Assembly (NCBI GenBank): GCA_020053155.1
Contig: JAGVNS010000158.1
Location: 1-35,212 of the forward strand
DNA length: 35,212 bases
From: Nitrososphaerota archaeon
GTDB lineage: Archaea; Iainarchaeota; Iainarchaeia; Iainarchaeales; VGJJ01
Direction: 5' to 3'
Shown: positions 1 through 19,250 of the stretch, one piece after another
Position numbering within the stretch: position 1 is the first letter of the stretch
Layout of the letters: every line of letters begins with the position of its first letter
Notes under the pieces: generated by a model
Told to the model about the DNA's origin: nothing
Seen by the model: the letters and a program-made list of their open reading frames with translations, nothing else
The model's database searches: none
Translations under genes and position numbers: made by a program

Positions 1-496
1 ATTGGATGTCCCTTCGAAAGGGTCGTTCTCCCGTAAATAAAATTTTTCCGTTCTCGCGGTAAATCAATCCCTTTATTTTCCCAAAAGGTTTGCCCTGACA
101 CAACTCAAGAAGGGTTTCTTCCCCCTCCTTCACGATTCCAAAATCAATGGAGGGACATTCCTCCAATACTTTTTCTTTTTCAGTTGAAATGTGCGCCGCC
201 CCTATCGCAATGGGAATGGATGGGAATGCGTTTTTGAGTTTGTTTATGAGGGCGTAACTGTCTTTGTACCGGTAGCTCTTCATGGCAATCCCGAGAAGGT
301 CGGGTTGGTAGGTTTTTATCTTTCGCACCAAATCGTCGAACGAGTATCCTAGACCCATGTCTAGTGTATCATAGTCAACCCCATTCGTGTGCAGGTATTC
401 CGCGATGTATCCCAATGCTAAATCTGGAACATCCCCCGGACGGTATGCGCTTTTGTAATAGGCGACGGGAATCAGCAATACTTTCTGGAAGCGCAT
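1..496 (-). CDS. Cobalamin (B12)-binding-domain radical SAM protein, N-terminal part only (gene runs off the window start)
   Basis: My own minus-strand translation from ATG 496..494 stays open to position 1 (MRFQKVLLIPVAYYKSAYRPGDVPDLALGYIAEYL...IAIGAAHIS...DFGIVKEGEETLLEL...IYRENGKILFTGERPF). The layout matches the N-terminal Rossmann-like B12-binding domains of the complete paralogs at 7642..9171 and 13482..15089. It is absent from the ORF track because it is truncated. It starts 3 nt after the stop of the upstream GT4 gene. Confidence 0.7.
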   Translation of the reverse strand, partial: MRFQKVLLIPVAYYKSAYRPGDVPDLALGYIAEYLHTNGVDYDTLDMGLGYSFDDLVRKIKTYQPDLLGIAMKSYRYKDSYALINKLKNAFPSIPIAIGAAHISTEKEKVLEECPSIDFGIVKEGEETLLELCQGKPFGKIKGLIYRENGKILFTGERPFRRDIQ

Positions 497-499
497 TGA

Positions 500-4253: not shown

Positions 4254-5141
4254 ATGCCTTTCTCAAACGATAAAACAGATTTTGTGAGTGTACTCATTCC
4301 CGCGTACAATGAAGCGGACTCCATCGCCGAAACCATTCGGCGCGTCGAGAGTGTGCTGAAAAAAAATAGCGTGCGGGGAGAAATAATCGTTATCAATGAT
4401 GGGAGCTGCGATGGAACGCCAGAAAAAGTGGAAAAAATGCGTGGAGTCATTCTGTTGTCCCACCCTGCCAATCGGGGATATGGGGCCAGCCTCAAAACGG
4501 GTTTGCGCGCTGCCAAAGGAAACTGGATTTTCATCACGGATGCAGATGGAACGTACCCCATTGAGGACTTTCAATCCCTGTGGGAAAAAAGGGCCCATTT
4601 CGACATGGTAGTAGGGGCGAGGAATCCCACCAGCCAGCACATTGCATGGATACGTAAGCCGGGAAAAATACTGTTATCCCTCATTGCTAATTATTTGGTA
4701 GGACGGAACATTCCCGACTTGAATTCGGGAATGCGGCTGTTCCGGAAGGATTTAGCCATGGAATTCTATCATTTGTACCCGCAGGGATTTTCATTCACCA
4801 TCACCATTACCCTGGCTTCGTTCGTAAACCATTATGCCGTGAAATACATTCCCATCGCGTACGCTGAGCGCGCCGGAAAATCAAAGATGAACGTGGTACG
4901 GGATGGACTTAATTTTATTTCCCTTATCTTTCGCGTCGTAACGTATTTCAATCCCGGTAAACTGCTCGTGCCGGTGGGAACCCTGCTCATACTCCTGGGT
5001 TTGCTCGTGGCGTATTACAGCACGTATTACTTGGGACAGTTCATGGATGCTACCACCGTTCTCCTCCTCCTCGCTGGATTTCAAGTTTACTTATTTGCAT
5101 TCATCGCCCAGCTCTGGGTCAAAACGAGGGCGTTGCGATGA
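4254..5141 (+). CDS. GT2 glycosyltransferase, GtrB/ArnC/DPM1-like polyprenyl-phosphate sugar synthase with two C-terminal TM helices
   Basis: 'VSVLIPAYNEADSI', 'VINDGSCDGT' and 'ITDADGTY' (the DXD motif). The C-terminus 'LLVPVGTLLILLGLLVAYY...LLLLAGFQVYLFAFIAQLW' is typical of GtrB-like enzymes. Confidence 0.85.
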   Translation: MPFSNDKTDFVSVLIPAYNEADSIAETIRRVESVLKKNSVRGEIIVINDGSCDGTPEKVEKMRGVILLSHPANRGYGASLKTGLRAAKGNWIFITDADGTYPIEDFQSLWEKRAHFDMVVGARNPTSQHIAWIRKPGKILLSLIANYLVGRNIPDLNSGMRLFRKDLAMEFYHLYPQGFSFTITITLASFVNHYAVKYIPIAYAERAGKSKMNVVRDGLNFISLIFRVVTYFNPGKLLVPVGTLLILLGLLVAYYSTYYLGQFMDATTVLLLLAGFQVYLFAFIAQLWVKTRALR

Positions 5142-6883
5142 AACAACACAAATCCATTGGCGCGGCGGACGCCTACCGAAAGGAAGCACTCGAACAGATT
5201 CCTCGGCTCTTAAGTCTCATGGACCGCAATCCCTTTTCCCCCACATATGGGTGTGCGGACCGCACGTATTGGTTGGACAAAGCCATTGATTTTCCAAGCT
5301 CCATCATGCAATACAGCGTCCACTCCCTCGCATTGGTGTATGCGCATGATTTTCAGGGGAACGACTACTATCACCAACCCAAAATAAGGGAATGGATACT
5401 GGCTTCCATTTCATTTTGGGAGAAGATTCAGAAGAATGATGGAAGCTTTGACGAATTTTACCCCAATGAAAGGGGGTGGGCGGGTCCCACCGGATTTTTG
5501 CTGTATGCCATGCTCTCTGCGCATGAATTACTGGGGAATGAATTTCCCTCTGAACGAAAAGAATCGTTTTTCAACGCGTGCAGAAAGGCCGCGTTGTATT
5601 TGGCGAAGTATGATGAACATGGAATTCTGGCCAACCACCACGCCATGGCCCTGCTTCCCATATATTATGCGTCCATTACCCTGAAAGAAGATGTCCTCCT
5701 CTACAATTTTGGGGAAAAACTGGATTACCTGCTAGGTCTCCAATCCAAGGAGGGGTGGTTCCTGGAATATGATGGAGCGGATTTGGGTTATTTGTCCGCC
5801 ACCATTTCATTTTTGACCAAACTCATCACCCTCCTGTCACGGGACGCACGACATGGGGAATGGAAAAAGAAAATAGAGGAATGCATTCCCCGCGCCATTG
5901 ATTTTGCATCCTACTTCGCCTACCCCAATGGGTATTATGCGGGAACCATGGGCAGCCGGCAGACGCTGCACTTTTACCCGCATGGTTTTGAATTATGGGG
6001 GAGAAAAAACGATAAAGCCGCAGGGGTGGCAGACTGGCTGGCAAAAGGTTTGTCGGAGGGAGCACTCGTTCCCCCGAGCATCATGCCCGACCGATACGTT
6101 GCGTACCGCGTGAACGAATTTTTGCAATCCTACCTGGATGCATTCCCGCGTAACACGGGAAAAATAGGAAGGCTTCCCTGGAAGGAAAAACCATTTATTC
6201 AATTCTTTCCAGAAGCCAAAATGGGAATTAAAAATACCCTCTCTTATTATGCGGCAATCAATCTGGCCAAGGGAGGCGTGCTCAAACTCTTTGACAAAAA
6301 ATCAGGAAAACTTTTCGCCAACGATTGCGGCGTGCTGTTGGAGGATAAAGAGGGGAACACGCTCACTTCCCAATGGATCGACCCCACATATCGCGTGGAA
6401 TTTTCCCCCGAAGGGTGCACGGTCTCTGGTCTCATGCACGTATGGGTTACGGAACTTCCTACCCCCCTCAAAATGATGGTTCTACGCTCTGCTCTCATTA
6501 CATTGGGAGAGAGCACGAGATTGGCATACAAAATAAAGGGAAAAATTAGGGAACGAATCATTCTCAAAAACAAAGCCGTACCCATTTCATTCCAGCGAAA
6601 TATCACATGGGAAAAATCCGGGTGCCACATTTCCGATCACATTGACGCGAGGGAGTATCCTTCTTCGTTTCTCCGCGGAAGGGTTGGGGATGAATTCTCC
6701 ATTCGGTACGTGCCCCAAAGCCTTTACTTTCAGGGACAGGAACTAAATGTTGAGGGAAGGTGGCTCACGCAAGGAGAAATAGAAGCGTTCAACCAAAAAA
6801 AAGAAGCAACCATTGAACAGACTATTGGGATTGGAATTCCGCACGTGACCCCAACCAAAACAAGAGGCGGGAAACGCGAATGA
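5138..6883 (+). CDS. Conserved-looking hypothetical protein (581 aa), function unknown; possibly an alpha/alpha-toroid N-half plus a beta-rich C-half
   Basis: A long ORF with ATGA overlaps to both neighbours (5138..5141 and 6880..6883). It has no TM segments or cofactor motifs that I recognise. The helical-repeat-like segments ('KNDGSFDEFYPNERGWAGPTGFLLYAM', 'SKEGWFLEYDGADLGYLS', 'ANHHAMALL') are only weakly reminiscent of heparinase II/III or prenyltransferase-type toroids. Confidence 0.8.
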   Translation: MKQHKSIGAADAYRKEALEQIPRLLSLMDRNPFSPTYGCADRTYWLDKAIDFPSSIMQYSVHSLALVYAHDFQGNDYYHQPKIREWILASISFWEKIQKNDGSFDEFYPNERGWAGPTGFLLYAMLSAHELLGNEFPSERKESFFNACRKAALYLAKYDEHGILANHHAMALLPIYYASITLKEDVLLYNFGEKLDYLLGLQSKEGWFLEYDGADLGYLSATISFLTKLITLLSRDARHGEWKKKIEECIPRAIDFASYFAYPNGYYAGTMGSRQTLHFYPHGFELWGRKNDKAAGVADWLAKGLSEGALVPPSIMPDRYVAYRVNEFLQSYLDAFPRNTGKIGRLPWKEKPFIQFFPEAKMGIKNTLSYYAAINLAKGGVLKLFDKKSGKLFANDCGVLLEDKEGNTLTSQWIDPTYRVEFSPEGCTVSGLMHVWVTELPTPLKMMVLRSALITLGESTRLAYKIKGKIRERIILKNKAVPISFQRNITWEKSGCHISDHIDAREYPSSFLRGRVGDEFSIRYVPQSLYFQGQELNVEGRWLTQGEIEAFNQKKEATIEQTIGIGIPHVTPTKTRGGKRE

Positions 6884-7563
6884 AAAATGTTTCCGTTGAC
6901 CATGCAGAACAAGCCGTTTTTTGGGAAAAGAAACGAGAAAAAAGAATGCCCACTCATCCCGCAGTTGAGGCGTTTGCCAAACCCAAAGTAGAAGCGATTG
7001 CCAAAATGATAGGAGTCAATTCCCAGACTCATGTGCTTGACGTGGGGTGTGGGAATGGTTTTTTCACGCATTACTGGAAGGAAAAAACCCCCCACGTCAT
7101 CGGAATCGATTTTAGCCAGGAAATGCTGATGAAAAACCAGAACCCCCTTCGCGTTCGGGGACGCGCCGAAGCGCTACCCTTCAAGGACCAATCCTTTGAC
7201 GTAGTATTCTGTTCCAATCTCCTCCATCATGTCGAAAGACCCGTCGATGTAGTCAAGGAGATGGTGCGCGTCTCCAAGAGACACGTCGTATTGTCGGAGC
7301 CCAATGCCCGGAACCCATTCATGAATCTTTTTTCACGAATCGTAAAAGAGGAAAATGGAGCGTTGAAATTTAATCCGGGGTACCTGCAAAGCATTACCAA
7401 CAATGCAGGGTTGCGTGAATTGTATTTGGGGGAGGAAGGGAGTGTGGTTCCTAACAAAACGCCTGGGTGGGCCGTTCCCATTCTGTCTCCTTTCAACGGA
7501 CCCATGGGGGGGGGATTTTACATCGTGTATGTGGGCGACCGTCTAGATATGGTCGAATATTGA
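6880..7563 (+). CDS. Class I SAM-dependent methyltransferase (Methyltransf_11-like)
   Basis: Motif I 'VLDVGCGNGFF', then 'LPFKDQSFDVVFCSNLLHHV' and 'LSEPN'. Confidence 0.85.
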   Translation: MKNVSVDHAEQAVFWEKKREKRMPTHPAVEAFAKPKVEAIAKMIGVNSQTHVLDVGCGNGFFTHYWKEKTPHVIGIDFSQEMLMKNQNPLRVRGRAEALPFKDQSFDVVFCSNLLHHVERPVDVVKEMVRVSKRHVVLSEPNARNPFMNLFSRIVKEENGALKFNPGYLQSITNNAGLRELYLGEEGSVVPNKTPGWAVPILSPFNGPMGGGFYIVYVGDRLDMVEY

Positions 7564-7641
7564 GTAAATTTCCCCCTTTTGGGTGGGCGTTTTATTAATG
7601 GTTTTTTCCCCATTCTTGGTATGGATGCTGGCTATTCCAAA

Positions 7642-9171
7642 ATGAATACAGAACATTCTATGGATGTACCAACCCTTCGTTTTCTCCTCGTTAACCCGCC
7701 CTTTCTGACTTCTTTTGGAATAAAAGAATCGGGCGGGCACGCCATGCCATTAGGGTTGATGTACGTGGCTTCCTACGTACGAAAATACGTTCCGGGAATA
7801 CAACCTCAAATTCTGGATTGTGAAAGCGACGCATTGACCGATGACCAAATAGAAAAACGGCTGAGCGAATGTCACGCCGATTTTCTTCTCCTCACGGTAC
7901 CTACTCCAACGGTTAATTCATGCAAACGCATTTCAGACATGGCAAAAAAAGCCAACCCTTCCTGCAAAGTCGTGTGGGGGGGACTCCACCCCACGGTTTT
8001 TCCCAAAGAATGCGTATCCCACCCCTCGGTTGATTTTGCCGTTATCGGAGAGGGGGAGCAAGTCATCCGCGAATTGGTGGAGCACGTGATACACGGGAAA
8101 AAGGATTTTTCGGACGTGAAAGGAATCGCTTACAAAAACGATGCAGGAGATGTTTTTCAAACGGGGATGCAGGAACTTATTCAGGACATTGATTCCATTC
8201 CCTTTCCCGCGTACGATTTGATTGAAGTCCGGAAATATCACACGGCTCCCTCCAAGAAACTTTCCAACAGCGAGAGCACCATGAACATCATGACCTCACG
8301 CGGGTGCGCATTCGACTGCATCCATTGCATTTCCAAAACAACTTGGCGTAGGAAAATGCGCTACCGCCCCCCTCAAAACGTGGCAGATGAGATGGAATAT
8401 TGTGTCAAAACGTTTGGGGTTAAGGAATTCAACTTTATGGATGACCTTTTTGGTATCAATGAAAAAAGAGTCATTGACGTGTGTGCGGAAATAAAGCGCC
8501 GCAACTTGGGAGTAAAATGGGTGGCATTCGCTCGCACCGACACGGTGACGGAACCCATGCTCAAAGCCATGAAAGAAGCGGGGTGCGTGAAGATTAGTAT
8601 GGGGATTGAGAGCGGGAACCAGGAAGTGCTCAACAAAATGAGAAAATCCCTGCGATTGGAGCAGGTGCGGAAGGGAATAAAATTAATGAAAAAGCACGGC
8701 TTTGAGGTACACTCTTCCTTCATGTTAGGAAACGTGGGGGATACGGAGGAGACCATCCGTGACACTATCAACTTCGCCAAGGAATTGGATTTGGACAACG
8801 CTACGTTTTTCATCACTTCCCCGTATCCGGGAACGGACTTGTATGGGATATCCATGAATGAGGGATTCGTCACTCCCAACACGCCATGGGAGAGTTTTGT
8901 TCCCCTGGGAAACCAACAACCCTTACTGGTGCAAAGCGCGGTTCCCTATGAGAAACTCATTCAACTCCAGAAGCAGGCATTCAAAGAGTTCTACCTTCGC
9001 CCTCGCCTCATCCTGCAGAAACTTCTGAGCATTCGTTCTGTGAGCGACGTTCGCACGCTCGCGGAAGGGTTGACCGTGTTCAAGGGGATTATGGACAAAA
9101 AAGAAGAAGTCCCTCCCTCTTCTAATTTGGTGTCGCCTCCAAGGGACGAGACAGCGGCCTCCACAATATAA
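7642..9171 (+). CDS. Cobalamin-binding-domain radical SAM enzyme (class B rSAM family)
   Basis: The ORF track start at 7579 is a TTG. ATG candidates lie at 7621, 7642 and 7660, and I chose 7642 (MNTEHSMDVPTLRFLLVNPP). B12-domain-like 'VVWGGLHPTVFP...DFAVIGEGEQVIRELV', a CX3CX2C motif 'SRGCAFDCIHC', then 'ISMGIESGNQEVL'. Confidence 0.85.
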   Translation: MNTEHSMDVPTLRFLLVNPPFLTSFGIKESGGHAMPLGLMYVASYVRKYVPGIQPQILDCESDALTDDQIEKRLSECHADFLLLTVPTPTVNSCKRISDMAKKANPSCKVVWGGLHPTVFPKECVSHPSVDFAVIGEGEQVIRELVEHVIHGKKDFSDVKGIAYKNDAGDVFQTGMQELIQDIDSIPFPAYDLIEVRKYHTAPSKKLSNSESTMNIMTSRGCAFDCIHCISKTTWRRKMRYRPPQNVADEMEYCVKTFGVKEFNFMDDLFGINEKRVIDVCAEIKRRNLGVKWVAFARTDTVTEPMLKAMKEAGCVKISMGIESGNQEVLNKMRKSLRLEQVRKGIKLMKKHGFEVHSSFMLGNVGDTEETIRDTINFAKELDLDNATFFITSPYPGTDLYGISMNEGFVTPNTPWESFVPLGNQQPLLVQSAVPYEKLIQLQKQAFKEFYLRPRLILQKLLSIRSVSDVRTLAEGLTVFKGIMDKKEEVPPSSNLVSPPRDETAASTI

Positions 9172-9190
9172 AAAAAGGGTTGAAAAAAGA

Positions 9191-10786
9191 ATGAAAAACG
9201 ATATTCCGGTTTGGGTGTGGGTACTCATTATTGGCCTGCCCTTGCTTTCTTCCCTGCCCATTTTGGGGGGATATCTAGCCAGCAGTCCCCCGGAACGCGT
9301 ATTCATGGGATTTGATTTCATTGACGATTTTCACTATTATGGGAATTACATCCATTCGTATGAAAACAATCCGTTGGATTTTTTTATTCTTAACCGCTCC
9401 ACATCCGAAAATCAGGATGGGCGTTTCTTTTTTCCTTATTTTTGGATTACGGGATTGGTGAGCACGGGAGTGGGGGTGGCGCTCGCCCTTGCATTCATGC
9501 GCATCCTCACGGGGATTATTCTCCTTTTCTTGGTATGGAAAATTTTGGAATACTTTTTTCCAGAACCCTTCTGGAGAAAAACAGCTTTTGTGTTAGCGTG
9601 TTTGGGAGCAGGTTTTGGGTGGATTACACACGTTTTAGGAATTTTCATTCCTGCGCTGGGAAAATTGTATTCCACCGACCTAACCTACTCGTTGGGGTAT
9701 AGTTTGTTCGGGTACTTGAGCTTCCCCCTCGCCATCGCGGGAGAGGCGTTATTTTTAGCCGGTCTCCTTTCTCTTTTTTTATTTTTGGAAAAAAAAGACA
9801 AAAAATACGCGTTTTTTTTCGGTCTGTCATTAATAGGAATTTTTTTTACCCATCCCGTGAGCGCCGTTACTTTTTTTCCCGTGTTTTTAGGAGGTGCGTT
9901 GTTATATTTAGTCCAAAATCCTTCGCATAAAGAGATTTTATCATTCAAAAATGTCGGGTTGGCATTTGCGGGAGCCCTGGTCCTCATTGGAATGTACGTA
10001 TGGTGGGCGTTACAGGACCCCGTTTTTCAATCGGTTTTCTTTTCGTATGGGCTTTGGCAACGAAGCGAAAGCCCCTTCTGGTGGATTTTGGGGTATGGGC
10101 TCATTCTCCTCTTTGCCCTATTGGGAGTGCGAACCCTGCAAATCGAAAACAAGCATGCGCGGGCATTCTTTTGGGCATGGTTATTGGTCATTCTCGTGCT
10201 GAGTTTGAATCCATGGAAGGGACTGCGCTTCCAGCATGCGCTTTTCATTCCATTGGTGATTCTGGCAACCTCTGGTATTCGGAGCGCATGGGATTGGATT
10301 CAAAAAAGCCCATATTCATCATGGGTCAAAACCCGGAACGCATGGGTGGGATTGATTTTAGTGATTATGGTCCCTGGAGTATTGTTCACGCTCGCCAACC
10401 ATATAAAGGACGTGCAGAATCCTTCCTTTCACAGCGGACCTTTTTTGTCACAGGAACAGATTGACGCACTAGAATTTTTAGAGGGTCAACGACCCGGAAT
10501 CGTTTTGTCCAATTACAAACTAGGGAACAATTTGATTTGGATGACTTCACATTATGCGTACTTAGGTCACTGGAATCAAACAACGGATAGGGAAGAAAAG
10601 ACTCTAAATGTGGAATCGTTTTTCAATGGAAAGATGACCACAACGCAAGCCATTTCATTTATTGCCACTGAAAAAATAAATTACATTCTGCGCGAGGGAA
10701 CGGAAACCATCCCCCCCCAACTTAATGGAGTGGAACGCATTTATCAGAACGGGACCCTTTTCATATATCGGGTGGCCGCGCCGTGA
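9191..10786 (+). CDS. Polytopic membrane protein with soluble C-terminal domain, GT-C-like candidate
   Basis: A 531-aa protein with more than 10 hydrophobic segments. It has an acidic first loop 'FMGFDFIDDFHYYGNY' after TM1 and a C-terminal non-membrane domain of about 120 aa. It lies in the same operon as the rSAM and a flippase-like gene. Confidence 0.65.
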   Translation: MKNDIPVWVWVLIIGLPLLSSLPILGGYLASSPPERVFMGFDFIDDFHYYGNYIHSYENNPLDFFILNRSTSENQDGRFFFPYFWITGLVSTGVGVALALAFMRILTGIILLFLVWKILEYFFPEPFWRKTAFVLACLGAGFGWITHVLGIFIPALGKLYSTDLTYSLGYSLFGYLSFPLAIAGEALFLAGLLSLFLFLEKKDKKYAFFFGLSLIGIFFTHPVSAVTFFPVFLGGALLYLVQNPSHKEILSFKNVGLAFAGALVLIGMYVWWALQDPVFQSVFFSYGLWQRSESPFWWILGYGLILLFALLGVRTLQIENKHARAFFWAWLLVILVLSLNPWKGLRFQHALFIPLVILATSGIRSAWDWIQKSPYSSWVKTRNAWVGLILVIMVPGVLFTLANHIKDVQNPSFHSGPFLSQEQIDALEFLEGQRPGIVLSNYKLGNNLIWMTSHYAYLGHWNQTTDREEKTLNVESFFNGKMTTTQAISFIATEKINYILREGTETIPPQLNGVERIYQNGTLFIYRVAAP

Positions 10787-11748
10787 ATTTCATAGTATCA
10801 TTTTTATCCAATCGAATCGTGCGCGCGGCCCTCGCCATTATTTTGATTGGGGGGGTTATTGTGTTGGCGAACCCCCTTGAATCCTTACCCGTTATTCTGG
10901 AGGCAGGACCCGCGTTACTGCTCTGGTTAGTGGGGGGATTCATTGGAATCATTATTGTCAATGCGTTAAGTGTGTGGTGGGTCTTGGGATTGAGGCATGG
11001 CATTTCACTCATTCGTATTTTGCGTCATTATGCGTGCAGTTGGAGCACTGAGTTCTATTTTCCTGGCAAATTAGGAATGTTTTCCCTGACCTACTTTCTA
11101 AAAAAAGAGAACGTGGAAGTGGGGGAAAGCGTGGCGGCTATTTTATTGATTAAAATGACCATGCTGATATGGCTATTCGCGTTGAGTTTGCTGGCGGTGG
11201 GAAATCTCCTAACCGCAAACGATTTTTTACTCTATTTAGGGACGCTTGTCATTGTCATTGGGGGGTTGGGAATCCTTTTTTTGACGGAGGGAGGGAGACA
11301 TTTTGTTCGGTATACCATCCTTGGGAAACATGCGGCTCACTTTGTTGGGTTTTCGAAGCTGGTTAAAACCGTTATTCAGCGCCCCACCCAATGGATGGGG
11401 TTGTTTATCCTCGTCTTTTTGAGCATTTTAATGAATGGAATCATGGTTCAAGGATTGTTTGCCGAGGTGGGATACCCACTCGATTTACTGACCATATTGG
11501 GGGTTGTTTCCTCTACCATTTTAGTGGGATTAATTCCACTCACCCTCAACGGGTTAGGCGTCAAAGAGGGTGCATTGATCGTACTCATGAGCTTGCATGG
11601 CGTTCCAACGGAAATCGCCGCGAGTGTAGGGTTGTTGAGTACCGCTACGGGGTACGTAATGTCCCTCCTCATTATGGCGTTCGTTTTGAAAGAAATTCCA
11701 TCTGTCCTTTTGAAAGGAGAAATGCCTCATGCGCGTCGCCCTGCTTAG
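10783..11748 (+). CDS. Flippase-like integral membrane protein (LPG_synthase_TM / UPF0104-like)
   Basis: GTG start in a GTGA overlap with the upstream stop. An 8-TM-like profile with 'FPGKLGMFSLTYFL' in the position of the family's P-G-R-x-G-D/E motif. It is a paralog-like counterpart of 26341..27342. Confidence 0.6.
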   Translation: MNFIVSFLSNRIVRAALAIILIGGVIVLANPLESLPVILEAGPALLLWLVGGFIGIIIVNALSVWWVLGLRHGISLIRILRHYACSWSTEFYFPGKLGMFSLTYFLKKENVEVGESVAAILLIKMTMLIWLFALSLLAVGNLLTANDFLLYLGTLVIVIGGLGILFLTEGGRHFVRYTILGKHAAHFVGFSKLVKTVIQRPTQWMGLFILVFLSILMNGIMVQGLFAEVGYPLDLLTILGVVSSTILVGLIPLTLNGLGVKEGALIVLMSLHGVPTEIAASVGLLSTATGYVMSLLIMAFVLKEIPSVLLKGEMPHARRPA

Positions 11749-12826
11749 CCCCCGCTCTCCGGTGTCGAACGCGGCCGGAATCGAGCAAAACATTCACCAC
11801 GTTTCGCACTATTTGAGCAAAAAGGGAGTAAATGTTGAGGTCTTTTGTACGACGTTTCACGCTCAACGAACGCTTACCCGGGATGGGATTTCCATTCATG
11901 AATTTCCAGCATTTGCACCTAAGGATAACTACTTTCTTTCCACCCCCCTCTATCACGCCCTGCGAAAATGGGAGGGGGGTATCGTCCATTGCAACGGCTA
12001 CAACAATTTAGTGAGCGTGGTGGGAATAATGGCCAAAAAAAAGAACCAAAAACTGGTGTTTACGCTGAACAGCAGTGGCTCCTCTTCCCGTCTACGAGAA
12101 TTACTCCACATTCCCCTCGCGTGGTTTTATCATTTCAATCGAAAAAAAATAGACCATTTGGTGTGCGTCTCAAAATGGGAGCATGAACGGCTCGCTCCCA
12201 CGTTTGGGTTGAATAAAAAGGATGTTTCCATCATTCCCAATGGCATTTCCTTATCGGAATTCAAAAAGAAAGGGAAACGAAAAAAAGGAAAAATTCTGAG
12301 CGTCGGGAGATTAGTCAAAAACAAGGGAATGCATCACCTCATCGCGGCATTTGCGCACGTTCAAAAAGAAATGCCCGAGGCCCAACTTCACATTGTGGGA
12401 GAGGGACCCCAACGTGAAGAATTGGAACAACAAGCCCACGCGTTGGGTTTGAAATCAAACGTGTTTTTCCATGGAAACATTGGTTTTGAGGAACGCGAAA
12501 CGCTGTTGGAACATTATCGCACGGCTTCCCTTTTTTCTCTGTTGACGGAATACGAGAGTCAGGGAATCGTTTTCGCGGAAGCCGCAGCGGCAGGGCTTCC
12601 CATGGCAATCCCAAACAAAGGAGTCATGCGCGAATATGTGGAAGCTGGCCTTGCTGAGGGAATTCAGGATGGGTTTAATTCGGAGGAAGTGAGTAGGGTG
12701 TTGGTTCGATTATTACGGAAAAAAAGGAGTGCCAAAAAGCCATCCCTAAAACCCCTCATTTGGGATTGGAAAGAAGTGGGAGCGGCCGTGCATCATTTAT
12801 ACCAAAAGCTCGAGAAGGAATCCTAG
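11729..12826 (+). CDS. Glycosyltransferase family 4
   Basis: 'MRVALLSPRSP...GIEQNIHHVSHYL', 'ILSVGRLVKNKGMHHLI' and the EX7E region 'LLTEYESQGIVFAEAAAAGLPMA'. The SD-like 'AGGAG' sits about 10 nt upstream of the ATG. Confidence 0.85.
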   Translation: MRVALLSPRSPVSNAAGIEQNIHHVSHYLSKKGVNVEVFCTTFHAQRTLTRDGISIHEFPAFAPKDNYFLSTPLYHALRKWEGGIVHCNGYNNLVSVVGIMAKKKNQKLVFTLNSSGSSSRLRELLHIPLAWFYHFNRKKIDHLVCVSKWEHERLAPTFGLNKKDVSIIPNGISLSEFKKKGKRKKGKILSVGRLVKNKGMHHLIAAFAHVQKEMPEAQLHIVGEGPQREELEQQAHALGLKSNVFFHGNIGFEERETLLEHYRTASLFSLLTEYESQGIVFAEAAAAGLPMAIPNKGVMREYVEAGLAEGIQDGFNSEEVSRVLVRLLRKKRSAKKPSLKPLIWDWKEVGAAVHHLYQKLEKES

Positions 12827-13501
12827 ATGTCGCTCAAGAAAGGAGAGTACGCCCCCTTCGTGGAATTTGACCAAAAAATGTCGGCCAAGCTCAAACCTCA
12901 ATTGGAAGAATGGTTTGCATCCATGCGTGGGAAAAACGTCCTGGATATTGGATGTGGGAGCGGGGACGTGGGGGCATTGTTGAGAGGGCGAATGGACGTG
13001 TATGGGGTGGACGAGCAATCCCTTGCGTTGAAAGCCGCCCAAACAAAAGGAATCAAAACAAAATTATCCTCCATTGAAAAGAATCTCCCTTACCCTTCTT
13101 CTTTCTTCGACAACGTCATTTGCAAAGATGTATTTGAACACTTGGTGCACCCCCACGACCTACTCAGGGAAATTCATCGTGTGTTGAAGGGCGGGGGAAA
13201 ATTATACGCTCACGTTCCCAATCAGTTTACGCTGTTGGACCGGATTCAAATTTTTGGGGGGAGAAGCATGGTGGTAAAACGTTGGTTTGAAGGAAGCGAG
13301 GAATGGAACTTTCCCCATTTGCGTTTTTTTACTCATTCGGGGTTTAGGGAGTTCCTGGAGAGTAATGGGTTTGAAGTAGAGAAAGAGTATTCGAATATCT
13401 GGAGTTACTCAATAGGAGGGGGAATGAATACCCGCTCTTTAAGCGGATTGTCCCCCGGACTTTTTTCTCCCGGGTTCACGTTTACTTGCCGGAAGAAGTA
13501 G
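12827..13501 (+). CDS. Class I SAM-dependent methyltransferase (Methyltransf_11-like)
   Basis: 'VLDIGCGSGDVGALL' and 'FDNVICKDVFEHLVHPHDLLREIHRVLKGGGKLYAHVPN'. The ATG directly abuts the upstream TAG. Confidence 0.85.
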   Translation: MSLKKGEYAPFVEFDQKMSAKLKPQLEEWFASMRGKNVLDIGCGSGDVGALLRGRMDVYGVDEQSLALKAAQTKGIKTKLSSIEKNLPYPSSFFDNVICKDVFEHLVHPHDLLREIHRVLKGGGKLYAHVPNQFTLLDRIQIFGGRSMVVKRWFEGSEEWNFPHLRFFTHSGFREFLESNGFEVEKEYSNIWSYSIGGGMNTRSLSGLSPGLFSPGFTFTCRKK

Positions 13502-15089
13502 CGGTTATTTCGGACGCAGGAATGACTTCCTTATTTTTGGGTTTAGAGGAATAGGGAGAAACGTTCTTGGCAATCATTCGGGGCAATCGGTCGAACACCA
13601 GGAATTTTCCAAGCGTAAAAAAGGATTTGGCATAATCCATTTTTCTGGAACTGCGGGCCATCTGGCGGAGTATCATTTTCATGGACGTAGAAGGGGTTAA
13701 TTGTTGCAAGGGAGAATTGAAGCGAATGTTATCCTCCGAAACCAGCTTGTCCAAATCCAGCGAGTGCTTTGCTACGACAAATTTGGTGGGCATTTTCCAT
13801 TCCGCTTCTTTGAAATAATGGTAATCCTCTTTTCCACTGGCAATCTCATCGTATATTTGGGAACCCGGGTAGGGGGTCATGAGCCCAAACGAAACGGTGG
13901 TGGGTTTTATTTTGGCAATCAGTTCCTGATTCATGCGAACGTCTTCCTGGGTTTCACCGGGGAGGTTGTACATCATGTTGGCAAACGTACGGATTCCCAA
14001 TTTATGGCAAATTTCAAATGCTTGGTGGATTTTCTCTACCTTACAATTCTTGTTCACCGCATCCAGCATGGCCTGGGAACCGGATTCCACTCCAAAATCG
14101 ATTTGAATGCAGCCCGCTTTTTGCATCCACGTCAACAATTCCTCATCCACTTTATCCACGCGCGTCTCTGCTCCCCAAACAAAGGGTATTTTTCGCTCAA
14201 TGAATTCCTTACAAATGTCAATGACGTGGGATTTCCAGACACAAAAATCGTCATCATAAAAATAAATCCCATCCACGTTGTATTTTTTGACCAATAACTC
14301 TACTTCATCTGCCACCGCTTTGGCGGAGCGAAAACGAATGGGTTTTTTGGTTTCATTGTATCGCCAAACGGAGGGAATGGCACAAAACGTGCAGTGTGCG
14401 GGACACCCGCGCGAGGCAAACACATACATGGATGCCAATGGGAAATAGCGAATGGCATAGGGATTAGGCTGCGTGTAGAAGGACATGTCCACTCGCTCAT
14501 AGGCGGGCATGGGTACGTTATCCAATGGTTCGATGAGGGGACGGAGGAGGGTTTTTTGAATATGGTCCTTTTCCCAAAATGAAATGCTTTGAATGGAATG
14601 AAACGCTTCTCCTTGTTTTTGGTCCAGAATGGCACGCGTCAATTCCCTAAAGGTTTCCTCTCCCTCCCCAACAACCACGTAATCAATGGGGCTGTTTTCA
14701 AAAATGAAATCTTCCGGGGCCAAGGATGAATGTTGTCCCCCCACGATTATTGTAGTGTTTATTTCAGATTTGATTCGTTTGGCAAAAGAGAGAGTGTAAT
14801 CCACTTCGTGCGTGAACGTTCCCATTCCCACCATGGTGGGGCGCATGTCTTTCAGCATTTCTATTATTTTTTCTTCTAACTCACGCGCTTTGGGGCTCTC
14901 TAGTTCAAGTATTTTCAAATCCTTGACTTTCAGGTCAATCAGTTCAACGGAAATTCCGTGCTTTTCAAGATAGGAACAAATGGTCATGAGTCCGAGGGGA
15001 GGTCTCGTACTGTGCGCCCGGCTTGGAAGGGAAATCAGACAAATGTCGGGGTGTTCATGAATCCTGTGGGATTTTTTTTCCTCAACCAT
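13482..15089 (-). CDS. Cobalamin-binding-domain radical SAM enzyme (class B rSAM family)
   Basis: 'IIVGGQHSSLAP...DYVVVGEGEETFRELT', a CX3CX2C motif 'SRGCPAHCTFC', and 'IDFGVESGSQAML'. Its 3' end overlaps the convergent methyltransferase by 20 nt. Confidence 0.9.
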   Translation of the reverse strand: MVEEKKSHRIHEHPDICLISLPSRAHSTRPPLGLMTICSYLEKHGISVELIDLKVKDLKILELESPKARELEEKIIEMLKDMRPTMVGMGTFTHEVDYTLSFAKRIKSEINTTIIVGGQHSSLAPEDFIFENSPIDYVVVGEGEETFRELTRAILDQKQGEAFHSIQSISFWEKDHIQKTLLRPLIEPLDNVPMPAYERVDMSFYTQPNPYAIRYFPLASMYVFASRGCPAHCTFCAIPSVWRYNETKKPIRFRSAKAVADEVELLVKKYNVDGIYFYDDDFCVWKSHVIDICKEFIERKIPFVWGAETRVDKVDEELLTWMQKAGCIQIDFGVESGSQAMLDAVNKNCKVEKIHQAFEICHKLGIRTFANMMYNLPGETQEDVRMNQELIAKIKPTTVSFGLMTPYPGSQIYDEIASGKEDYHYFKEAEWKMPTKFVVAKHSLDLDKLVSEDNIRFNSPLQQLTPSTSMKMILRQMARSSRKMDYAKSFFTLGKFLVFDRLPRMIAKNVSPYSSKPKNKEVIPASEITATSSGK

Positions 15090-15113
15090 ATATGAATATC
15101 CCGCCTCACGCGC

Positions 15114-16139
15114 CTATAAAGAGTTTGAGTGTGTTGGGAGTACCTTTTCAAGCATGCTCCGTCGCCACGCGAGCAACTGCATTTCCTGAAGCTGGCGTTG
15201 CTGCTTGAGCATGGACCCGATAAGACCCATGATGGCAAACTGGAAACCCAAAAGGAGGCAGAGAACAGTGAAGACCGCGCTGGGAAGATATGGTTCAATG
15301 GCTCCCGTATTCAAAAATTGGGAAATGACGCGACTGCCCGAAAGGAGACCCACGAGGATAATAGCCCCTCCCATCGTGAAAAACGTACGCAGGGGATGGT
15401 ATCGAAGCATTCCTAATAGGAGCGTAGCGCTCGCGCGTCGGGCATAACTCCAGACCGAACCAAAGAGCCTATTTTCTCCATCCATTCGTTTTCGGAAAGT
15501 GATGGGAATCTCTTCGATGCAGAGATTTTTGTCTACCACCTCGAGAATGGTTTCCTGCGTATACGTAAAATTGGACAACACGTTTAATCGCAGGGCGGCA
15601 TCCCGCGTAAATGCGCGAAAACCCGTTTGACCATCGCTCACATTTGCACCCGAGACGAAATTAACGGCCCATGTCGCCATTTTGTTTCCCCAATATTTTC
15701 CAAAAGACATGTGCTCAATGTGTCCCAGGAAACGGGAACCCAGCACCATGTCTGCACGCTTGTGCAAAATGGGTTCAATCAAATGTGGAATTTGGGACTG
15801 GTCGTATTGATTGTCTCCATCCGTATTCACAATGACATCTGCCCCTAATTTGAGGGCGGTATCAATGCCCTTACGGAATGAATAGGCTAACCCTTGGCGG
15901 GAGGCATTGGAAATGATGAGCGCCCCTGCTTCCGTGGCTTTGGGGACGGTGCGGTCCACGCTTCCATCGTCAATGACAAGGGGAATAACCACATCCACCC
16001 CTCGCATCTCTCGGGGAATGCTTTCAATAACCGCCTTAATGGTGGCCTCTTCGTTATGGGCAGGAATCATTACCACTACTTTGACTCCCGATTTGGGTTT
16101 CAGTTCAGCTGCCAATTTTGCGGAGGTTCGAAGGACCAT
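15114..16139 (-). CDS. GT2 glycosyltransferase, GtrB/DPM1-like polyprenyl-phosphate sugar synthase with C-terminal TM helices
   Basis: The ORF track start at 16157 is a TTG. The ATG at 16139 (MVLRTSAKL...) sits 27.5 nt downstream of a TATA-like box. 'VVVMIPAHNEEATI', 'VIDDGSVDRT', 'VNTDGDNQY', and the C-terminal 'GGAIILVGLLSG...LLGFQFAIMGLIGSML'. Confidence 0.85.
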   Translation of the reverse strand: MVLRTSAKLAAELKPKSGVKVVVMIPAHNEEATIKAVIESIPREMRGVDVVIPLVIDDGSVDRTVPKATEAGALIISNASRQGLAYSFRKGIDTALKLGADVIVNTDGDNQYDQSQIPHLIEPILHKRADMVLGSRFLGHIEHMSFGKYWGNKMATWAVNFVSGANVSDGQTGFRAFTRDAALRLNVLSNFTYTQETILEVVDKNLCIEEIPITFRKRMDGENRLFGSVWSYARRASATLLLGMLRYHPLRTFFTMGGAIILVGLLSGSRVISQFLNTGAIEPYLPSAVFTVLCLLLGFQFAIMGLIGSMLKQQRQLQEMQLLAWRRSMLEKVLPTHSNSL

Positions 16140-19228: not shown

Positions 19229-19250
19229 CATGAAAAAAGGAGAATCGGGC

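What the first reader, a model, noticed from the sequence alone, without database searches (positions are those of the whole stretch)
4254..16139. Duplicated triad: GtrB-like GT2 + class I SAM methyltransferase + B12-radical SAM
Seen: the same three-component set occurs twice. Set A is on the plus strand: GT2 4254..5141, then the orphan 5138..6883, methyltransferase 6880..7563 and rSAM 7642..9171. Set B has GT2 15114..16139 followed by rSAM 13482..15089 on the minus strand. Methyltransferase 12827..13501 converges on that rSAM and overlaps its 3' end by 20 nt.

The GT2s are paralogs; both have the NE...DDGS/NDGS...D(A/G)D pattern plus two C-terminal TM helices. The two methyltransferases are both Methyltransf_11-like, and the rSAMs are paralogs.

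Inference: this looks like a duplicated functional module. Each copy may make a differently methylated polyprenyl-phosphate sugar donor, using both a conventional (O/N) methyltransferase and a radical (C) methyltransferase.
Basis: partly seen in the sequence, partly recalled or inferred. Interest (0 to 1): 0.7.

Follow-up and report, generated by a model that had tools for sequence, protein, structure and literature searches.

The report
Two distinct glycan-tailoring cassettes, not a duplication
A small groundwater archaeon carries two look-alike gene sets (sugar transferase, methyltransferase, vitamin-B12 radical enzyme) that are not copies of each other but parts of two separate, uncharacterised sugar-tailoring cassettes for surface glycans, both with relatives in many uncultured bacteria.

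Summary
The "duplicated module" reading does not hold. The A/B pairs share only 26-29% identity. Each set-A protein has far closer counterparts in other archaea and in bacteria of several phyla. In 100 bootstrap trees the two radical SAM (rSAM) enzymes were never sisters.

Set A is a real conserved cassette. Of 13 species with an rSAM-A ortholog, 12 have a GT2-A-like gene nearby, 12 a methyltransferase, 12 a second B12-rSAM and 10 a flippase-like gene. None of 33 control loci had GT2-A-like or MT-A-like genes.

The "orphan" belongs to a large family with a polysaccharide-lyase/uronate-epimerase-like fold. It travels with GT2-A orthologs, a flippase-like protein and large membrane transferases.

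For relatives of rSAM-B the recurring partners are a GT4 transferase and a methyltransferase. GT2-B-like genes appeared in 0 of 27 such loci. MT-B is the last gene of the plus-strand array that starts with GT2-A. A third B12-rSAM is cut off at the window's left edge.

Most likely this is one large surface-glycan locus with a lipid-linked sugar donor pathway (synthase, flippase, membrane transferase) plus radical and conventional tailoring enzymes. The chemistry of the rSAMs is not established.

The parts
1..499 (-). N-terminal part of a third B12-binding rSAM; the gene runs off the left end of the window
   Evidence: The translation has a B12-binding-domain-like N-terminus ending in ...VKEGEETLLEL. 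It is syntenic with the 474-aa B12-rSAM of L001 (1460-2884), which converges on a 249-aa methyltransferase beside a Wzx flippase. That L001 rSAM clusters with the 485-aa rSAM of L004 in the NJ tree.
2658..4157 (-). 499-aa polytopic membrane protein with no Pfam family, transcribed divergently from GT2-A
   Evidence: At least 9 hydrophobic helices. Weak NCBIfam hit to a cell-surface glycopolymer formation protein. Conserved at this position in L001, L007 and L085.
4254..5141 (+). GT2-A, resembling polyprenyl-phosphate sugar synthases (GtrB/ArnC/DPM1/AglJ type), with C-terminal membrane helices
   Evidence: PF00535 E 6e-28. Best NCBIfam matches are AglJ and Dol-P-hexose transferase, both below cut-off. 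Nearest PDB entries are ArnC, PfDPMS and GtrB. Orthologs scoring 157-288 bits sit in bacterial rSAM-A and orphan loci.
5138..6883 (+). The 'orphan': a soluble enzyme with an (alpha/alpha) toroid plus beta-sandwich fold, like polysaccharide lyases and uronate C5-epimerases
   Evidence: More than 1195 homologs at 47-55% identity across bacteria and archaea, with many invariant polar residues. AF2 model pLDDT 91. Foldseek matches chondroitin AC lyase, dermatan sulfate epimerase, PL17/PL15 lyases and heparinase III at E down to 3e-8 and TM about 0.5. Fused to a class I methyltransferase in at least 5 homologs.
6880..7563 (+). MT-A, class I SAM-dependent methyltransferase
   Evidence: Methyltransf_11 E 7.5e-23. 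Orthologs score 114-224 bits in L004, in bacterial rSAM-A loci and in the orphan loci L087 and L168.
7621..9171 (+). rSAM-A, B12-binding radical SAM enzyme (start at 7621 or 7642)
   Evidence: PF02310 plus PF04055. CxxxCxxC motif present. Orthologous clade of 27 sequences across archaea and bacteria with 100% bootstrap.
9191..10786 (+). 531-aa membrane protein with about 13 helices; candidate GT-C-type transferase with possible distant STT3/AglB-like features
   Evidence: Hydropathy. Invariant G40-D42-F43-D45-D46-F47-H48 just after the first helix. 1180 representative clusters in the family, none recognised by Pfam. The family profile matches PDB 3vu0 at E 0.004, with VLSxYxxGN aligned to that chain's VLSWWDYGN. 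One of four orthologs hits PMT_2 at E 6.8e-6.
10783..11748 (+). Flippase-like membrane protein of the LPG_synthase_TM / MprF-type family
   Evidence: PF03706 E 5.8e-23. A gene of this family lies within 8 kb in 10/13 rSAM-A loci, and in the orphan loci L087, L168 and L170.
11729..12826 (+). GT4 glycosyltransferase, the recurring glycosyltransferase partner of the rSAM-B family
   Evidence: Glycos_transf_1 E 8.8e-30. A GT4 lies directly upstream on the same strand in 28/46 rSAM-B-family loci.
12827..13501 (+). MT-B, class I SAM-dependent methyltransferase; last gene of the plus-strand array
   Evidence: Methyltransf_11 E 9e-18. Methyltransferases next to rSAM-B-family genes score higher to MT-B than to MT-A in 27/30 cases.
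13482..15089 (-). rSAM-B, B12-binding radical SAM enzyme of a different family from rSAM-A
   Evidence: PF02310 plus PF04055. Orthologs at 69-76% identity in related archaea and 48% in L004. Separate clade with 100% bootstrap, never sister to rSAM-A.
15114..16139 (-). GT2-B, second AglJ/DPM1-like membrane GT2; adjacency to rSAM-B seen only in close relatives
   Evidence: PF00535 E 5e-17. Best matches are AglJ and PfDPMS. Conserved next to rSAM-B only in L001, L007 and L085. 0/27 rSAM-B-family loci have a GT2-B-like gene.

Best explanation
The region belongs to one large surface-glycan biosynthesis locus of a DPANN-type archaeon. The closest relatives are groundwater MAGs labelled 'archaeon' and 'Candidatus Diapherotrites'. 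It holds two different tailoring cassettes that share relatives across phyla and only look alike at the Pfam level.

Cassette A runs from 4254 to about 11748. It has the layout of a three-component extracytoplasmic glycosylation system.
- GT2-A is inferred to load a sugar onto a polyprenyl or dolichyl phosphate on the cytoplasmic face.
- The lyase/epimerase-fold 'orphan', MT-A and rSAM-A are inferred to tailor that lipid-linked sugar.
- The LPG_synthase_TM protein is inferred to flip it across the membrane.
- The 531-aa polytopic protein is inferred to transfer it to an external acceptor.

Cassette B is GT4 (11729) + MT-B + rSAM-B. Relatives of rSAM-B in many bacteria carry the same GT4 - rSAM - methyltransferase arrangement. 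It is inferred to tailor a sugar added by a cytoplasmic GT4. GT2-B is an additional Dol-P-sugar-synthase-like enzyme that is not a conserved partner of this cassette.

Shown here: domain identities, the separate phylogenetic families, conserved synteny, and the fold of the orphan. Inferred: substrates, order of steps, and the chemistry of the rSAMs (C-methylation or a radical rearrangement/dehydration of the sugar).
For: Gene map and domains.

A and B are not close paralogs.
- Pairwise identity is 26-29%.
- Thousands of database proteins are closer to rSAM-A than rSAM-B is; the top 120 hits score at least 455 bits against 180 bits for rSAM-B.
- In NJ trees the rSAM-A, rSAM-C (the second rSAM of the bacterial cassettes, absent from the window) and rSAM-B clades have 100/97/100% bootstrap, and A+B were sisters in 0/100 replicates.

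Cassette A is conserved.
- Of 13 species with an rSAM-A ortholog and at least 4 kb on both flanks, 12 have a GT2-A-like gene, 9 an MT-A-like gene, 12 any methyltransferase, 12 a second B12-rSAM and 10 an LPG_synthase_TM gene. In 33 control loci with distant B12-rSAMs, GT2-A-like and MT-A-like genes were found in 0.
- The full window arrangement is kept in L001, L007 and L085.
- L004 has GT2A-orphan-MTA-531aa homolog-rSAM-B ortholog-rSAM-A ortholog.

The orphan.
- Fold.
- In L087, L168 and L170 it sits next to GT2-A orthologs (244-288 bits) and an LPG_synthase_TM gene. PMT_2-type membrane proteins are called in L087 and L170. Methyltransferases and rSAMs are present in some loci and absent in others.

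Cassette B: GT4 upstream in 28/46, methyltransferase downstream in 23/61, second B12-rSAM within 5 kb in 20/27, GT2-B-like in 0/27. A methyltransferase::B12-rSAM fusion (P0140) lies between GT4 genes in an Omnitrophota polysaccharide locus.

Precedent for tailoring a lipid-linked monosaccharide donor in three-component systems: Kelly et al. 2024, PMC11127046.
Against: - No biochemistry exists for any of these families. All NCBIfam equivalog cut-offs are missed.
- The GT-C assignment of the 531-aa protein is weak. Pfam hit 0/50 family members, a profile-profile comparison with PMT_2-type proteins gave 30% probability, the PDB hit has E 0.004, and the single-sequence model is unusable at pLDDT 50.
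- The bacterial cassettes usually lack the orphan (3/13) and carry rSAM-C instead of rSAM-B, so 'cassette A' varies in content.
- The rSAM-B-family loci are only 35-47% identical to rSAM-B, so they may not be strict orthologs.
- In the GT2 and MT trees the A and B clades are neighbours within my sample. That sample lacks outgroups, so an ancient duplication of those two families cannot be excluded.
- The rSAMs could act on nucleotide sugars or on a growing oligosaccharide rather than on a lipid-linked monosaccharide.
Confidence: 0.6

Rival explanations
1. A GT2 + methyltransferase + B12-rSAM module was duplicated as a unit, and each copy makes a differently methylated polyprenyl-phosphate sugar donor.
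For: The same three Pfam architectures occur twice within 12 kb. Within my biased sample the GT2-A and GT2-B clades, and the MT-A and MT-B clades, are neighbours. GT2-B-like genes do sit next to B12-rSAMs and LPG_synthase_TM genes in some Patescibacteria loci (L027, L028).
Against: Identity is 26-29%. rSAM-A and rSAM-B were never sisters, and rSAM-A clusters with rSAM-C rather than rSAM-B in the NJ tree. No GT2-B-like gene was found in 27 rSAM-B-family loci, where GT4 is the recurring partner. The rSAM-B ortholog in L004 lies inside cassette A without GT2-B or MT-B. MT-B is co-oriented and tightly packed with the cassette-A array.
Confidence: 0.12
2. The B12-rSAMs are not methylases. They carry out a radical rearrangement, ring contraction or dehydration of a lipid-linked sugar, as proposed for HpnJ after the glycosyltransferase HpnI and for calditol synthase, or as shown for AprD4 and OxsB. 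The class I methyltransferases then supply the only methylations. This concerns the chemistry and is compatible with the cassette model above.
For: Best NCBIfam matches are HpnJ (229 and 170 bits) and BchE (225 and 178 bits). The hopanoid C-methylase HpnR scores only 84 and 93 bits. The nearest solved structures are AprD4, 9ccb and OxsB, ahead of the methylases TokK, CysS and TsrM. The literature proposes that an rSAM (HpnJ, Cds) acts on a lipid-linked sugar installed by a glycosyltransferase (PMC13459092).
Against: All matches are far below family cut-offs. From general knowledge, most characterised B12-binding rSAMs are methylases. No sequence feature tested here separates the two chemistries.
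Confidence: 0.3
3. Chance juxtaposition. The locus is a gene-dense glycan island where GT2s, methyltransferases and rSAMs are all common, so the 'triads' are artefacts of grouping.
For: The window has 3 GT2s, at least 3 B12-rSAMs, 2 methyltransferases and about 5 GT4 genes. In control loci, some GT2 plus some methyltransferase lie within 8 kb of an unrelated B12-rSAM in 7/33 cases. The GT2-B adjacency is conserved only in close relatives.
Against: For set A the specific orthologous families co-occur in 12/13 (GT2-A-like) and 9/13 (MT-A-like) species against 0/33 controls. For set B, the GT4 - rSAM - methyltransferase order recurs in many unrelated metagenomic contigs.
Confidence: 0.1
4. The class I methyltransferases serve the rSAMs rather than the sugar, for example by methylating the corrinoid cofactor. 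That would explain why a methyltransferase so often sits beside, or is fused to, a B12-rSAM.
For: A methyltransferase is adjacent in 23/61 rSAM-B-family loci. A methyltransferase::rSAM fusion exists (P0140). Both MTs give weak NCBIfam hits to the corrinoid-protein-associated methyltransferase CpaM (35 and 33 bits, cut-off 180).
Against: The CpaM hits are weaker than many other methyltransferase families. From general knowledge, class B rSAM methylases methylate their own cobalamin from SAM. MT-A-type methyltransferases also occur with the orphan in loci without any rSAM (L087, L168).
Confidence: 0.05

Closest known systems
Three-component extracytoplasmic glycosylation systems (GtrA/GtrB/GtrC; ArnC/ArnEF/ArnT; CsbB/GtcA/YfhO; the pentofuranose systems of Kelly et al. 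2024, PMC11127046)
   Same: A membrane-anchored GT2 whose nearest solved relatives are ArnC, Dol-P-Man synthase and GtrB. A flippase-type membrane protein and a large polytopic candidate transferase lie in the same array. Auxiliary enzymes may modify the lipid-linked donor, as the epimerase does in Kelly et al..
   Different: The flippase-like protein is of the LPG_synthase_TM (MprF-type) family, not GtrA, MATE or ArnEF. The candidate GT-C belongs to a family unknown to Pfam. The tailoring set of B12-rSAM(s), class I methyltransferase and a lyase/epimerase-fold protein turned up in none of my literature searches for such systems.
Archaeal N-glycosylation enzymes AglJ/AglD (Dol-P-hexose GT2), AglP (SAM methyltransferase), AglR (flippase) and AglS/AglB (GT-C). 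The pathway roles are from my own knowledge.
   Same: Both GT2s match AglJ best in NCBIfam (111 and 133 bits). A SAM methyltransferase lies in the same cluster. The 531-aa family aligns weakly to PDB 3vu0, placing VLSxYxxGN opposite VLSWWDYGN. I recall 3vu0 as the C-terminal domain of an archaeal AglB; the deposit calls it only 'putative uncharacterized protein'.
   Different: Scores are far below the AglJ cut-off of 325 bits. The WWDYG motif is not conserved. As far as I know, no rSAM or lyase-fold enzyme is part of described Agl pathways.
HpnI / HpnK / HpnJ (hopanoid cyclitol ether) and calditol synthase Cds
   Same: A glycosyltransferase installs a sugar on a lipid, and an rSAM (HpnJ, Cds) is proposed to rework that lipid-linked sugar (PMC13459092). 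HpnJ is the best NCBIfam match of rSAM-A and the second best of rSAM-B.
   Different: The scores of 229 and 170 bits fall far short of the HpnJ cut-off of 577. No hopanoid or GDGT genes are adjacent. The GT2s here are DPM1/AglJ-like. HpnI did not appear among their NCBIfam matches; HpnB matched only weakly at 22-23 bits.
Gentamicin-type sugar methylation networks (B12-rSAM C-methylases GenK and GenD1 alongside class I methyltransferases; PMC5819394, PMC4340712)
   Same: They combine cobalamin-dependent rSAM enzymes and conventional SAM methyltransferases acting on sugars.
   Different: Those act on soluble aminoglycoside intermediates in actinomycete secondary metabolism. Here the context is a surface-glycan, lipid-carrier locus of a DPANN archaeon and of uncultured bacteria. 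No specific relationship to GenK or GenD1 was tested.

Membership tests
GT2 polyprenyl-phosphate sugar synthase (GtrB / ArnC / DPM1 / AglJ type) | GT-A (GT2) catalytic domain with a DxD-type motif | tested here: met
   PF00535 E 6e-28 (A) and 5e-17 (B). DAD and DGD motifs visible in the alignment.
GT2 polyprenyl-phosphate sugar synthase (GtrB / ArnC / DPM1 / AglJ type) | C-terminal transmembrane helices anchoring the catalytic domain | tested here: met
   Hydropathy peaks at residues about 237-288 (A) and 260-314 (B).
GT2 polyprenyl-phosphate sugar synthase (GtrB / ArnC / DPM1 / AglJ type) | Score above a curated equivalog cut-off (AglJ, Dol-P-hexose transferase, ArnC, PpgS) | tested here: not met
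   AglJ 111 and 133 bits against a cut-off of 325; the others are lower. The proteins are similar to this group but are not members of any named equivalog.
GT2 polyprenyl-phosphate sugar synthase (GtrB / ArnC / DPM1 / AglJ type) | Transfer of a sugar from a nucleotide sugar to polyprenyl or dolichyl phosphate | not testable with these tools
   Needs an enzyme assay.
Cobalamin-binding (class B) radical SAM enzymes | N-terminal B12-binding domain plus a radical SAM core with CxxxCxxC | tested here: met
   PF02310 and PF04055 in both proteins. Invariant C222/C226/C229 in family A and C195/C199/C202 in family B.
Cobalamin-binding (class B) radical SAM enzymes | Methyltransferase activity (methylcobalamin intermediate) | not testable with these tools
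   Best matches are the non-methylases HpnJ and BchE, and AprD4 and OxsB among solved structures, so methylation is not implied.
HpnJ / BchE equivalogs | Score above the NCBIfam cut-off | tested here: not met
   HpnJ 229.5 and 169.8 bits against 577.6. BchE 225 and 178 bits against 481.
Class I SAM-dependent methyltransferase | Rossmann-type methyltransferase domain with the GxGxG SAM-binding motif | tested here: met
   Methyltransf_11 E 7.5e-23 and 9e-18. VLDVGCGNG and VLDIGCGSG.
Three-component extracytoplasmic glycosylation system | Lipid-phosphate sugar synthase, flippase and GT-C transferase encoded together | tested here: inconclusive
   Synthase-like GT2: met. Flippase-like protein: PF03706 E 5.8e-23, but a different family from the known flippases of such systems. 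GT-C: about 13 helices and an acidic motif after the first helix. Sequence support is only weak and there is no usable model.
Polysaccharide lyase / uronate C5-epimerase fold (PL8, PL12, PL15, PL17; DS-epimerase), for the orphan | (alpha/alpha) toroid followed by a beta-sandwich | tested here: met
   AF2 pLDDT 91 with helices at 8-333 and strands at 353-564. Foldseek E 3e-8 to 1e-5, TM 0.43-0.53 to 1rwa, 6hzn, 7bjt, 4fnv and 3afl.
Polysaccharide lyase / uronate C5-epimerase fold (PL8, PL12, PL15, PL17; DS-epimerase), for the orphan | Sequence membership of a lyase family and its catalytic Tyr/His/Arg arrangement | tested here: not met
   No Pfam or NCBIfam hit for the window protein. No PDB hit by profile. 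Only faint Ulvan_lyase_N or Pec_lyase hits in some homologs. Catalytic residues were not mapped.
'Duplicated module' (co-duplicated triad) | A and B members are each other's closest relatives | tested here: not met
   Searches compared with 11, 28, 45, 54. A+B were sisters in 0/100 bootstrap trees for the rSAMs.
'Duplicated module' (co-duplicated triad) | Both triads recur as units in other genomes | tested here: not met
   Set A recurs. Set B with its GT2 is seen only in close relatives. Elsewhere the partners are GT4 plus a methyltransferase, and GT2-B-like genes were found in 0/27 loci.

The most novel reading that the evidence does not exclude
An uncharacterised cassette shared across domains by DPANN archaea, Patescibacteria (CPR), Omnitrophota, Aminicenantes and others makes a polyprenyl-phosphate-linked sugar. 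One to three cobalamin-dependent rSAM enzymes, a class I methyltransferase and, in some lineages, a new lyase/epimerase-fold enzyme rework that sugar. An MprF-type flippase and a new, possibly distantly STT3-like, GT-C family then export and attach it. This would be radical chemistry on a lipid-linked glycosyl donor. It would yield C-methylated or carbocyclic surface sugars in organisms that must scavenge cobalamin.
Probability: 0.3. Interest if true: 0.75.

Novelty: new variant of a known kind. Interest (0 to 1): 0.5.

Why it matters
If the model holds, these cassettes add radical SAM/cobalamin chemistry to the set of reactions known to act on lipid-linked sugar donors. So far I know of deformylation and epimerisation there.

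The work also points to three large protein families without functional annotation:
- the 'orphan' family, with more than 1195 homologs;
- the 531-aa membrane family, with 1180 representative clusters;
- the rSAM-A, rSAM-B and rSAM-C clades.

All are common in ultra-small groundwater archaea and bacteria, whose cell surfaces probably mediate attachment to hosts. Shared cassettes at 45-55% identity between DPANN archaea and CPR bacteria also suggest gene exchange between the two groups.

For the scan itself, the lesson is that matching Pfam architectures at 26-29% identity should not be read as a duplication.

Tried and rejected
- Exact look-up of rSAM-A with the 7642 start found nothing; the called gene starts at 7621.
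- A profile of the orphan family against PDB sequences found nothing. Only the fold comparison gave matches.
- The GT-C assignment of the 531-aa protein stayed unresolved. Pfam on 4 orthologs gave one PMT_2 hit. Pfam on 50 family members gave none. hhalign against PMT_2-type neighbours gave 30% probability. The single-sequence AF2 model is unusable at pLDDT 50, so no fold search was run.
- The fusions are weaker evidence than hoped. The methyltransferase domain fused to the orphan is not of the MT-A type (about 30% identity). The methyltransferase domain of the MT::rSAM fusion P0140 is only 27% identical to MT-B. They support a class-level link only.
- The promoter/terminator scan did not exceed shuffled expectation and assumes bacterial signals, so it is uninformative here.
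- Literature searches for B12-rSAM with glycosyltransferase and DPANN, and for PF03706 with glycosyltransferase, found no papers. The polysaccharide C-methylation search returned only aminoglycoside work.
- The exclusive pairing of rSAM-A with the rSAM-C clade has only 17% bootstrap support. I therefore do not claim rSAM-C as the sister group, only that rSAM-B is not.

Full report
**1. What is in the sequence**

| Gene | Coordinates | Evidence |
|---|---|---|
| GT2-A | 4254-5141 (+) | PF00535, E 6e-28 |
| 'Orphan' | 5138-6883 (+) | 581 aa, soluble, no Pfam or NCBIfam family |
| MT-A | 6880-7563 (+) | Methyltransf_11 |
| rSAM-A | 7621 or 7642-9171 (+) | B12-binding + Radical_SAM |
| MT-B | 12827-13501 (+) | Methyltransf_11 |
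| rSAM-B | 13482-15089 (-) | B12-binding + Radical_SAM |
| GT2-B | 15114-16139 (-) | PF00535, E 5e-17 |

- The cited GT2 motifs, the GxGxG motif of the methyltransferases and the CxxxCxxC motif of the rSAMs are all visible in the pairwise alignments.
- Both GT2s end in hydrophobic helices.
- The 20-nt convergent overlap at 13482-13501 is exact.

- 9191-10786 encodes a 531-aa protein with about 13 membrane helices.
- 10783-11748 encodes an LPG_synthase_TM (MprF-type, flippase-like) protein.
- 11729-12826 encodes a GT4.

These three genes link MT-A/rSAM-A to MT-B with gene junctions of -20 to +19 nt. MT-B is therefore the last gene of a plus-strand array that begins with GT2-A. rSAM-B and GT2-B form a separate minus-strand pair.

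The window also starts inside a third B12-rSAM at 1-499(-). It contains a third GT2, a SPASM-type rSAM, a second LPG_synthase_TM gene, RmlA/RmlB-like and DegT genes, several GT4s and two more large polytopic proteins. It is one large glycan locus.

**2. Source organism**

The nearest relatives are groundwater MAGs labelled 'archaeon' (Hainich well H51) and 'Candidatus Diapherotrites archaeon'. They keep the whole arrangement (L001, L007, L085).

**3. Are the pairs duplicates?**

Pairwise BLASTP gives superfamily-level similarity only.

| Pair | Identity | Bits |
|---|---|---|
| GT2-A / GT2-B | 26% | 80 |
| MT-A / MT-B | 28% over 134 aa | 45 |
| rSAM-A / rSAM-B | 29% | 180 |

- rSAM-A has homologs at 43-53% identity (455-600 bits) in Patescibacteria, Elusimicrobia, Omnitrophota, Dehalococcoidia and Chitinispirillaceae.
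- GT2 genes in those bacterial loci score 157-288 bits to GT2-A but 36-72 bits to GT2-B.
- Methyltransferases there score 114-224 bits to MT-A but 23-31 bits to MT-B.
- GT2-A is about as similar to ArnC of known structure (66 bits) as to GT2-B.

An NJ tree of 148 B12-rSAMs from the fetched loci separates three groups:
- an rSAM-A clade of 27 sequences from archaea and bacteria;
- a neighbouring 'rSAM-C' clade, the second rSAM of the bacterial cassettes, which is absent from the window;
- an rSAM-B clade on the other side of the tree.

Bootstrap support for the three clades is 100, 97 and 100%. A+B were sisters in 0 of 100 replicates. In the GT2 and MT trees the A and B clades are neighbours. 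That sample holds only relatives of A or B and no outgroups, so it cannot show exclusivity. An ancient split cannot be ruled out. A module-level duplication is not supported.

**4. Does the triad recur?**

*Set A.* I anchored a scan of one genome per species on the rSAM-A profile and scored all neighbouring ORFs against the window proteins. Orthologs were defined as at least 700 bits to the profile, with at least 4 kb on both flanks. The control loci carry only distant B12-rSAMs.

| Neighbour within 8 kb | rSAM-A ortholog loci (n=13) | Control loci (n=33) |
|---|---|---|
| GT2-A-like (≥150 bits) | 12 | 0 |
| MT-A-like (≥140 bits) | 9 | 0 |
| Any class I methyltransferase | 12 | 12 |
| Second B12-rSAM | 12 | 14 |
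| LPG_synthase_TM gene | 10 | 3 |
| Orphan | 3 | 0 |

The usual bacterial order is GT2 - rSAM-C - MT - rSAM-A - LPG_synthase_TM. Set A is therefore a genuine cassette shared between archaea and bacteria.

*Set B.* I anchored a metagenome scan on a profile of rSAM-B and its close homologs. Apart from the same-lineage contig (L088) and the L004-type genome (L089), the loci found are 34-47% identical to rSAM-B.

| Feature | Count |
|---|---|
| GT4 directly upstream, same strand | 28/46 |
| Class I methyltransferase directly downstream | 23/61 (closer to MT-B than MT-A in 27/30) |
| Second B12-rSAM within 5 kb | 20/27 |
| GT2-B-like gene in the locus | 0/27 |
| Any GT2 within 3 kb | 1/27 |

In the window the GT4 at 11729 directly precedes MT-B, so the conserved unit is GT4 + MT-B + rSAM-B.

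In L004, the only distant genome with a clear rSAM-B ortholog (48%), the order is GT2A - orphan - MTA - 531-aa homolog - rSAM-B ortholog - rSAM-A ortholog. It has no MT-B or GT2-B. The two rSAMs therefore work in one locus and are not alternative copies.

An Omnitrophota protein (P0140) fuses a class I methyltransferase to a B12-rSAM between GT4 genes. Its methyltransferase domain is only 27% identical to MT-B.

**5. The orphan**

- It belongs to a large family, with more than 1195 hits at 47-55% identity across bacteria and archaea and many invariant Asp, Glu, His, Arg, Trp and Tyr residues.
- The AlphaFold model is confident (pLDDT 91, pTM 0.92). It shows an (alpha/alpha) toroid followed by a beta-sandwich.
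- Foldseek finds chondroitin AC lyase, human dermatan sulfate epimerase 1, PL17/PL15 alginate lyases and heparinases at E 3e-8 to 1e-5, TM about 0.5 and 10-13% identity.
- Sequence searches against PDB find nothing.
- In independent loci (L087, L168, L170) it sits beside GT2-A orthologs (244-288 bits) and an LPG_synthase_TM gene. PMT_2-type membrane proteins are called in L087 and L170. Methyltransferases and B12-rSAMs are present in some loci and absent in others.
- One locus (L169) lacks the GT2.
- At least five homologs are fused to a C-terminal class I methyltransferase.

The fold suggests an enzyme acting at C5 of a uronic acid, either a lyase or an epimerase. This is an inference from fold only.

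**6. The 531-aa membrane protein**

- It has 1180 representative clusters in the 50%-identity library and no Pfam family.
- It has an invariant acidic motif (D42, D45, D46) just after the first helix, as GT-C enzymes do.
- Its family profile aligns weakly (E 0.004) to PDB 3vu0, placing VLSxYxxGN opposite that chain's VLSWWDYGN. From memory, 3vu0 is the C-terminal domain of an archaeal oligosaccharyltransferase; the deposit names it only 'putative uncharacterized protein'.
- Other tests were weak or failed.

I treat GT-C status as likely but unproven.

**7. Mechanism**

The layout matches three-component extracytoplasmic glycosylation: a lipid-phosphate sugar synthase, a flippase and a GT-C transferase. 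Auxiliary enzymes can act on the lipid-linked donor in such systems (Kelly et al. 2024, PMC11127046).

I propose that GT2-A makes a polyprenyl or dolichyl phosphate sugar. The orphan, MT-A and rSAM-A modify it in the cytoplasm. The LPG_synthase_TM protein flips it, and the 531-aa protein attaches it outside the cell. The GT4/MT-B/rSAM-B unit probably tailors a sugar added by the GT4 to a growing glycan.

The rSAM chemistry is open. The best family matches are HpnJ and BchE, well below cut-off. The nearest solved structures are AprD4 and OxsB, ahead of the methylases TokK, CysS and TsrM. HpnJ and calditol synthase are proposed to contract the ring of a lipid-linked sugar installed by a glycosyltransferase (PMC13459092). 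That is a credible alternative to C-methylation.

**8. Novelty and score**

My literature searches found no description of these cassettes.

| Assessment | Value |
|---|---|
| Kind | Known (lipid-carrier glycan pathway with tailoring enzymes) |
| New combination | B12-rSAMs, lyase-fold enzyme, MprF-type flippase and a new membrane family |
| Novelty rating | New variant of a known kind |
| Interest | 0.5 |

The recurrence of the GT2 + methyltransferase + B12-rSAM association is supported.

Noticed in passing
window 1-499 (-): The window begins inside a third B12-binding rSAM gene; only its N-terminal 166 codons are present. In the relative L001 the full 474-aa gene converges on a 249-aa class I methyltransferase next to a Wzx-type flippase. 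The lineage therefore has at least three methyltransferase/B12-rSAM pairs.
   Followed up: partly
window 5138-6883 (+): The 'orphan' belongs to a large uncharacterised family (over 1195 hits) with a confident polysaccharide-lyase/uronate-epimerase-like fold. It is fused to a class I methyltransferase in some bacteria (P0321, P0328, P0351, P0355, P0359).
   Followed up: yes
window 9191-10786 (+): This 531-aa membrane protein with about 13 helices defines a family of 1180 representative clusters with no Pfam model. It has an invariant D-x-x-D-D motif after the first helix and a C-terminal segment that aligns weakly to the WWDYG region of PDB 3vu0.
   Followed up: partly
window 18054-18452 and 18449-19228 (+): A GT4 glycosyltransferase appears split into a 132-aa gene and a 259-aa gene that overlap by 4 nt. 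Only the 259-aa product matches the GT4 C-terminal domain; the 132-aa product has no Pfam hit. The same two-gene arrangement (131 aa + 256 aa) is found in L085, so it looks like a conserved split rather than a frameshift.
   Followed up: partly
window 19200-27342: A further group of genes is present here: DegT aminotransferase, a short GT2 without membrane helices (20338-21132), an epimerase, a 548-aa polytopic protein, a SPASM-type rSAM (24778-26121) and a second LPG_synthase_TM gene (26341-27342). Similar gene content (DegT, a short GT2 scoring 92 bits, epimerase, SPASM rSAM, PMT_2-like protein) surrounds the orphan in the unrelated locus L170.
   Followed up: partly
window 28167-30767 (+): An 866-aa protein has fibronectin-III and weak Ig-like domain matches and hydrophobic segments near both ends. 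It is a candidate surface (S-layer-type) protein and a possible acceptor of the glycan.
   Followed up: no
window 16256-17269 and 17206-18039 (+): The longest ORF of the RmlA-like nucleotidyltransferase overlaps the RmlB-like dehydratase by 64 nt. The Pfam domain begins at residue 24, so the true start is probably downstream of 17206.
   Followed up: no
L086 5503-7875 (protein P0140): A 790-aa fusion of a class I methyltransferase and a B12-binding rSAM lies between GT4 genes in an Omnitrophota polysaccharide locus. That locus holds two more B12-rSAMs, an asparagine-synthase-like gene and a Wzx flippase.
   Followed up: partly
L010-L028, L036 (bacterial loci) compared with window 4254-11748: Cassette proteins are 43-55% identical between DPANN archaea and bacteria such as Patescibacteria. 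This suggests gene transfer between domains; I did not determine the direction.
   Followed up: no
L045, L056, L058, L060 (Geobacterales, including cultured Pelotalea chapellei DSM 13688): A B12-rSAM, a class I methyltransferase about 2.3 kb downstream and a GT2-B-like GT2 about 5.9 kb downstream recur in the same order. A cultured organism here could serve as an experimental entry point.
   Followed up: no
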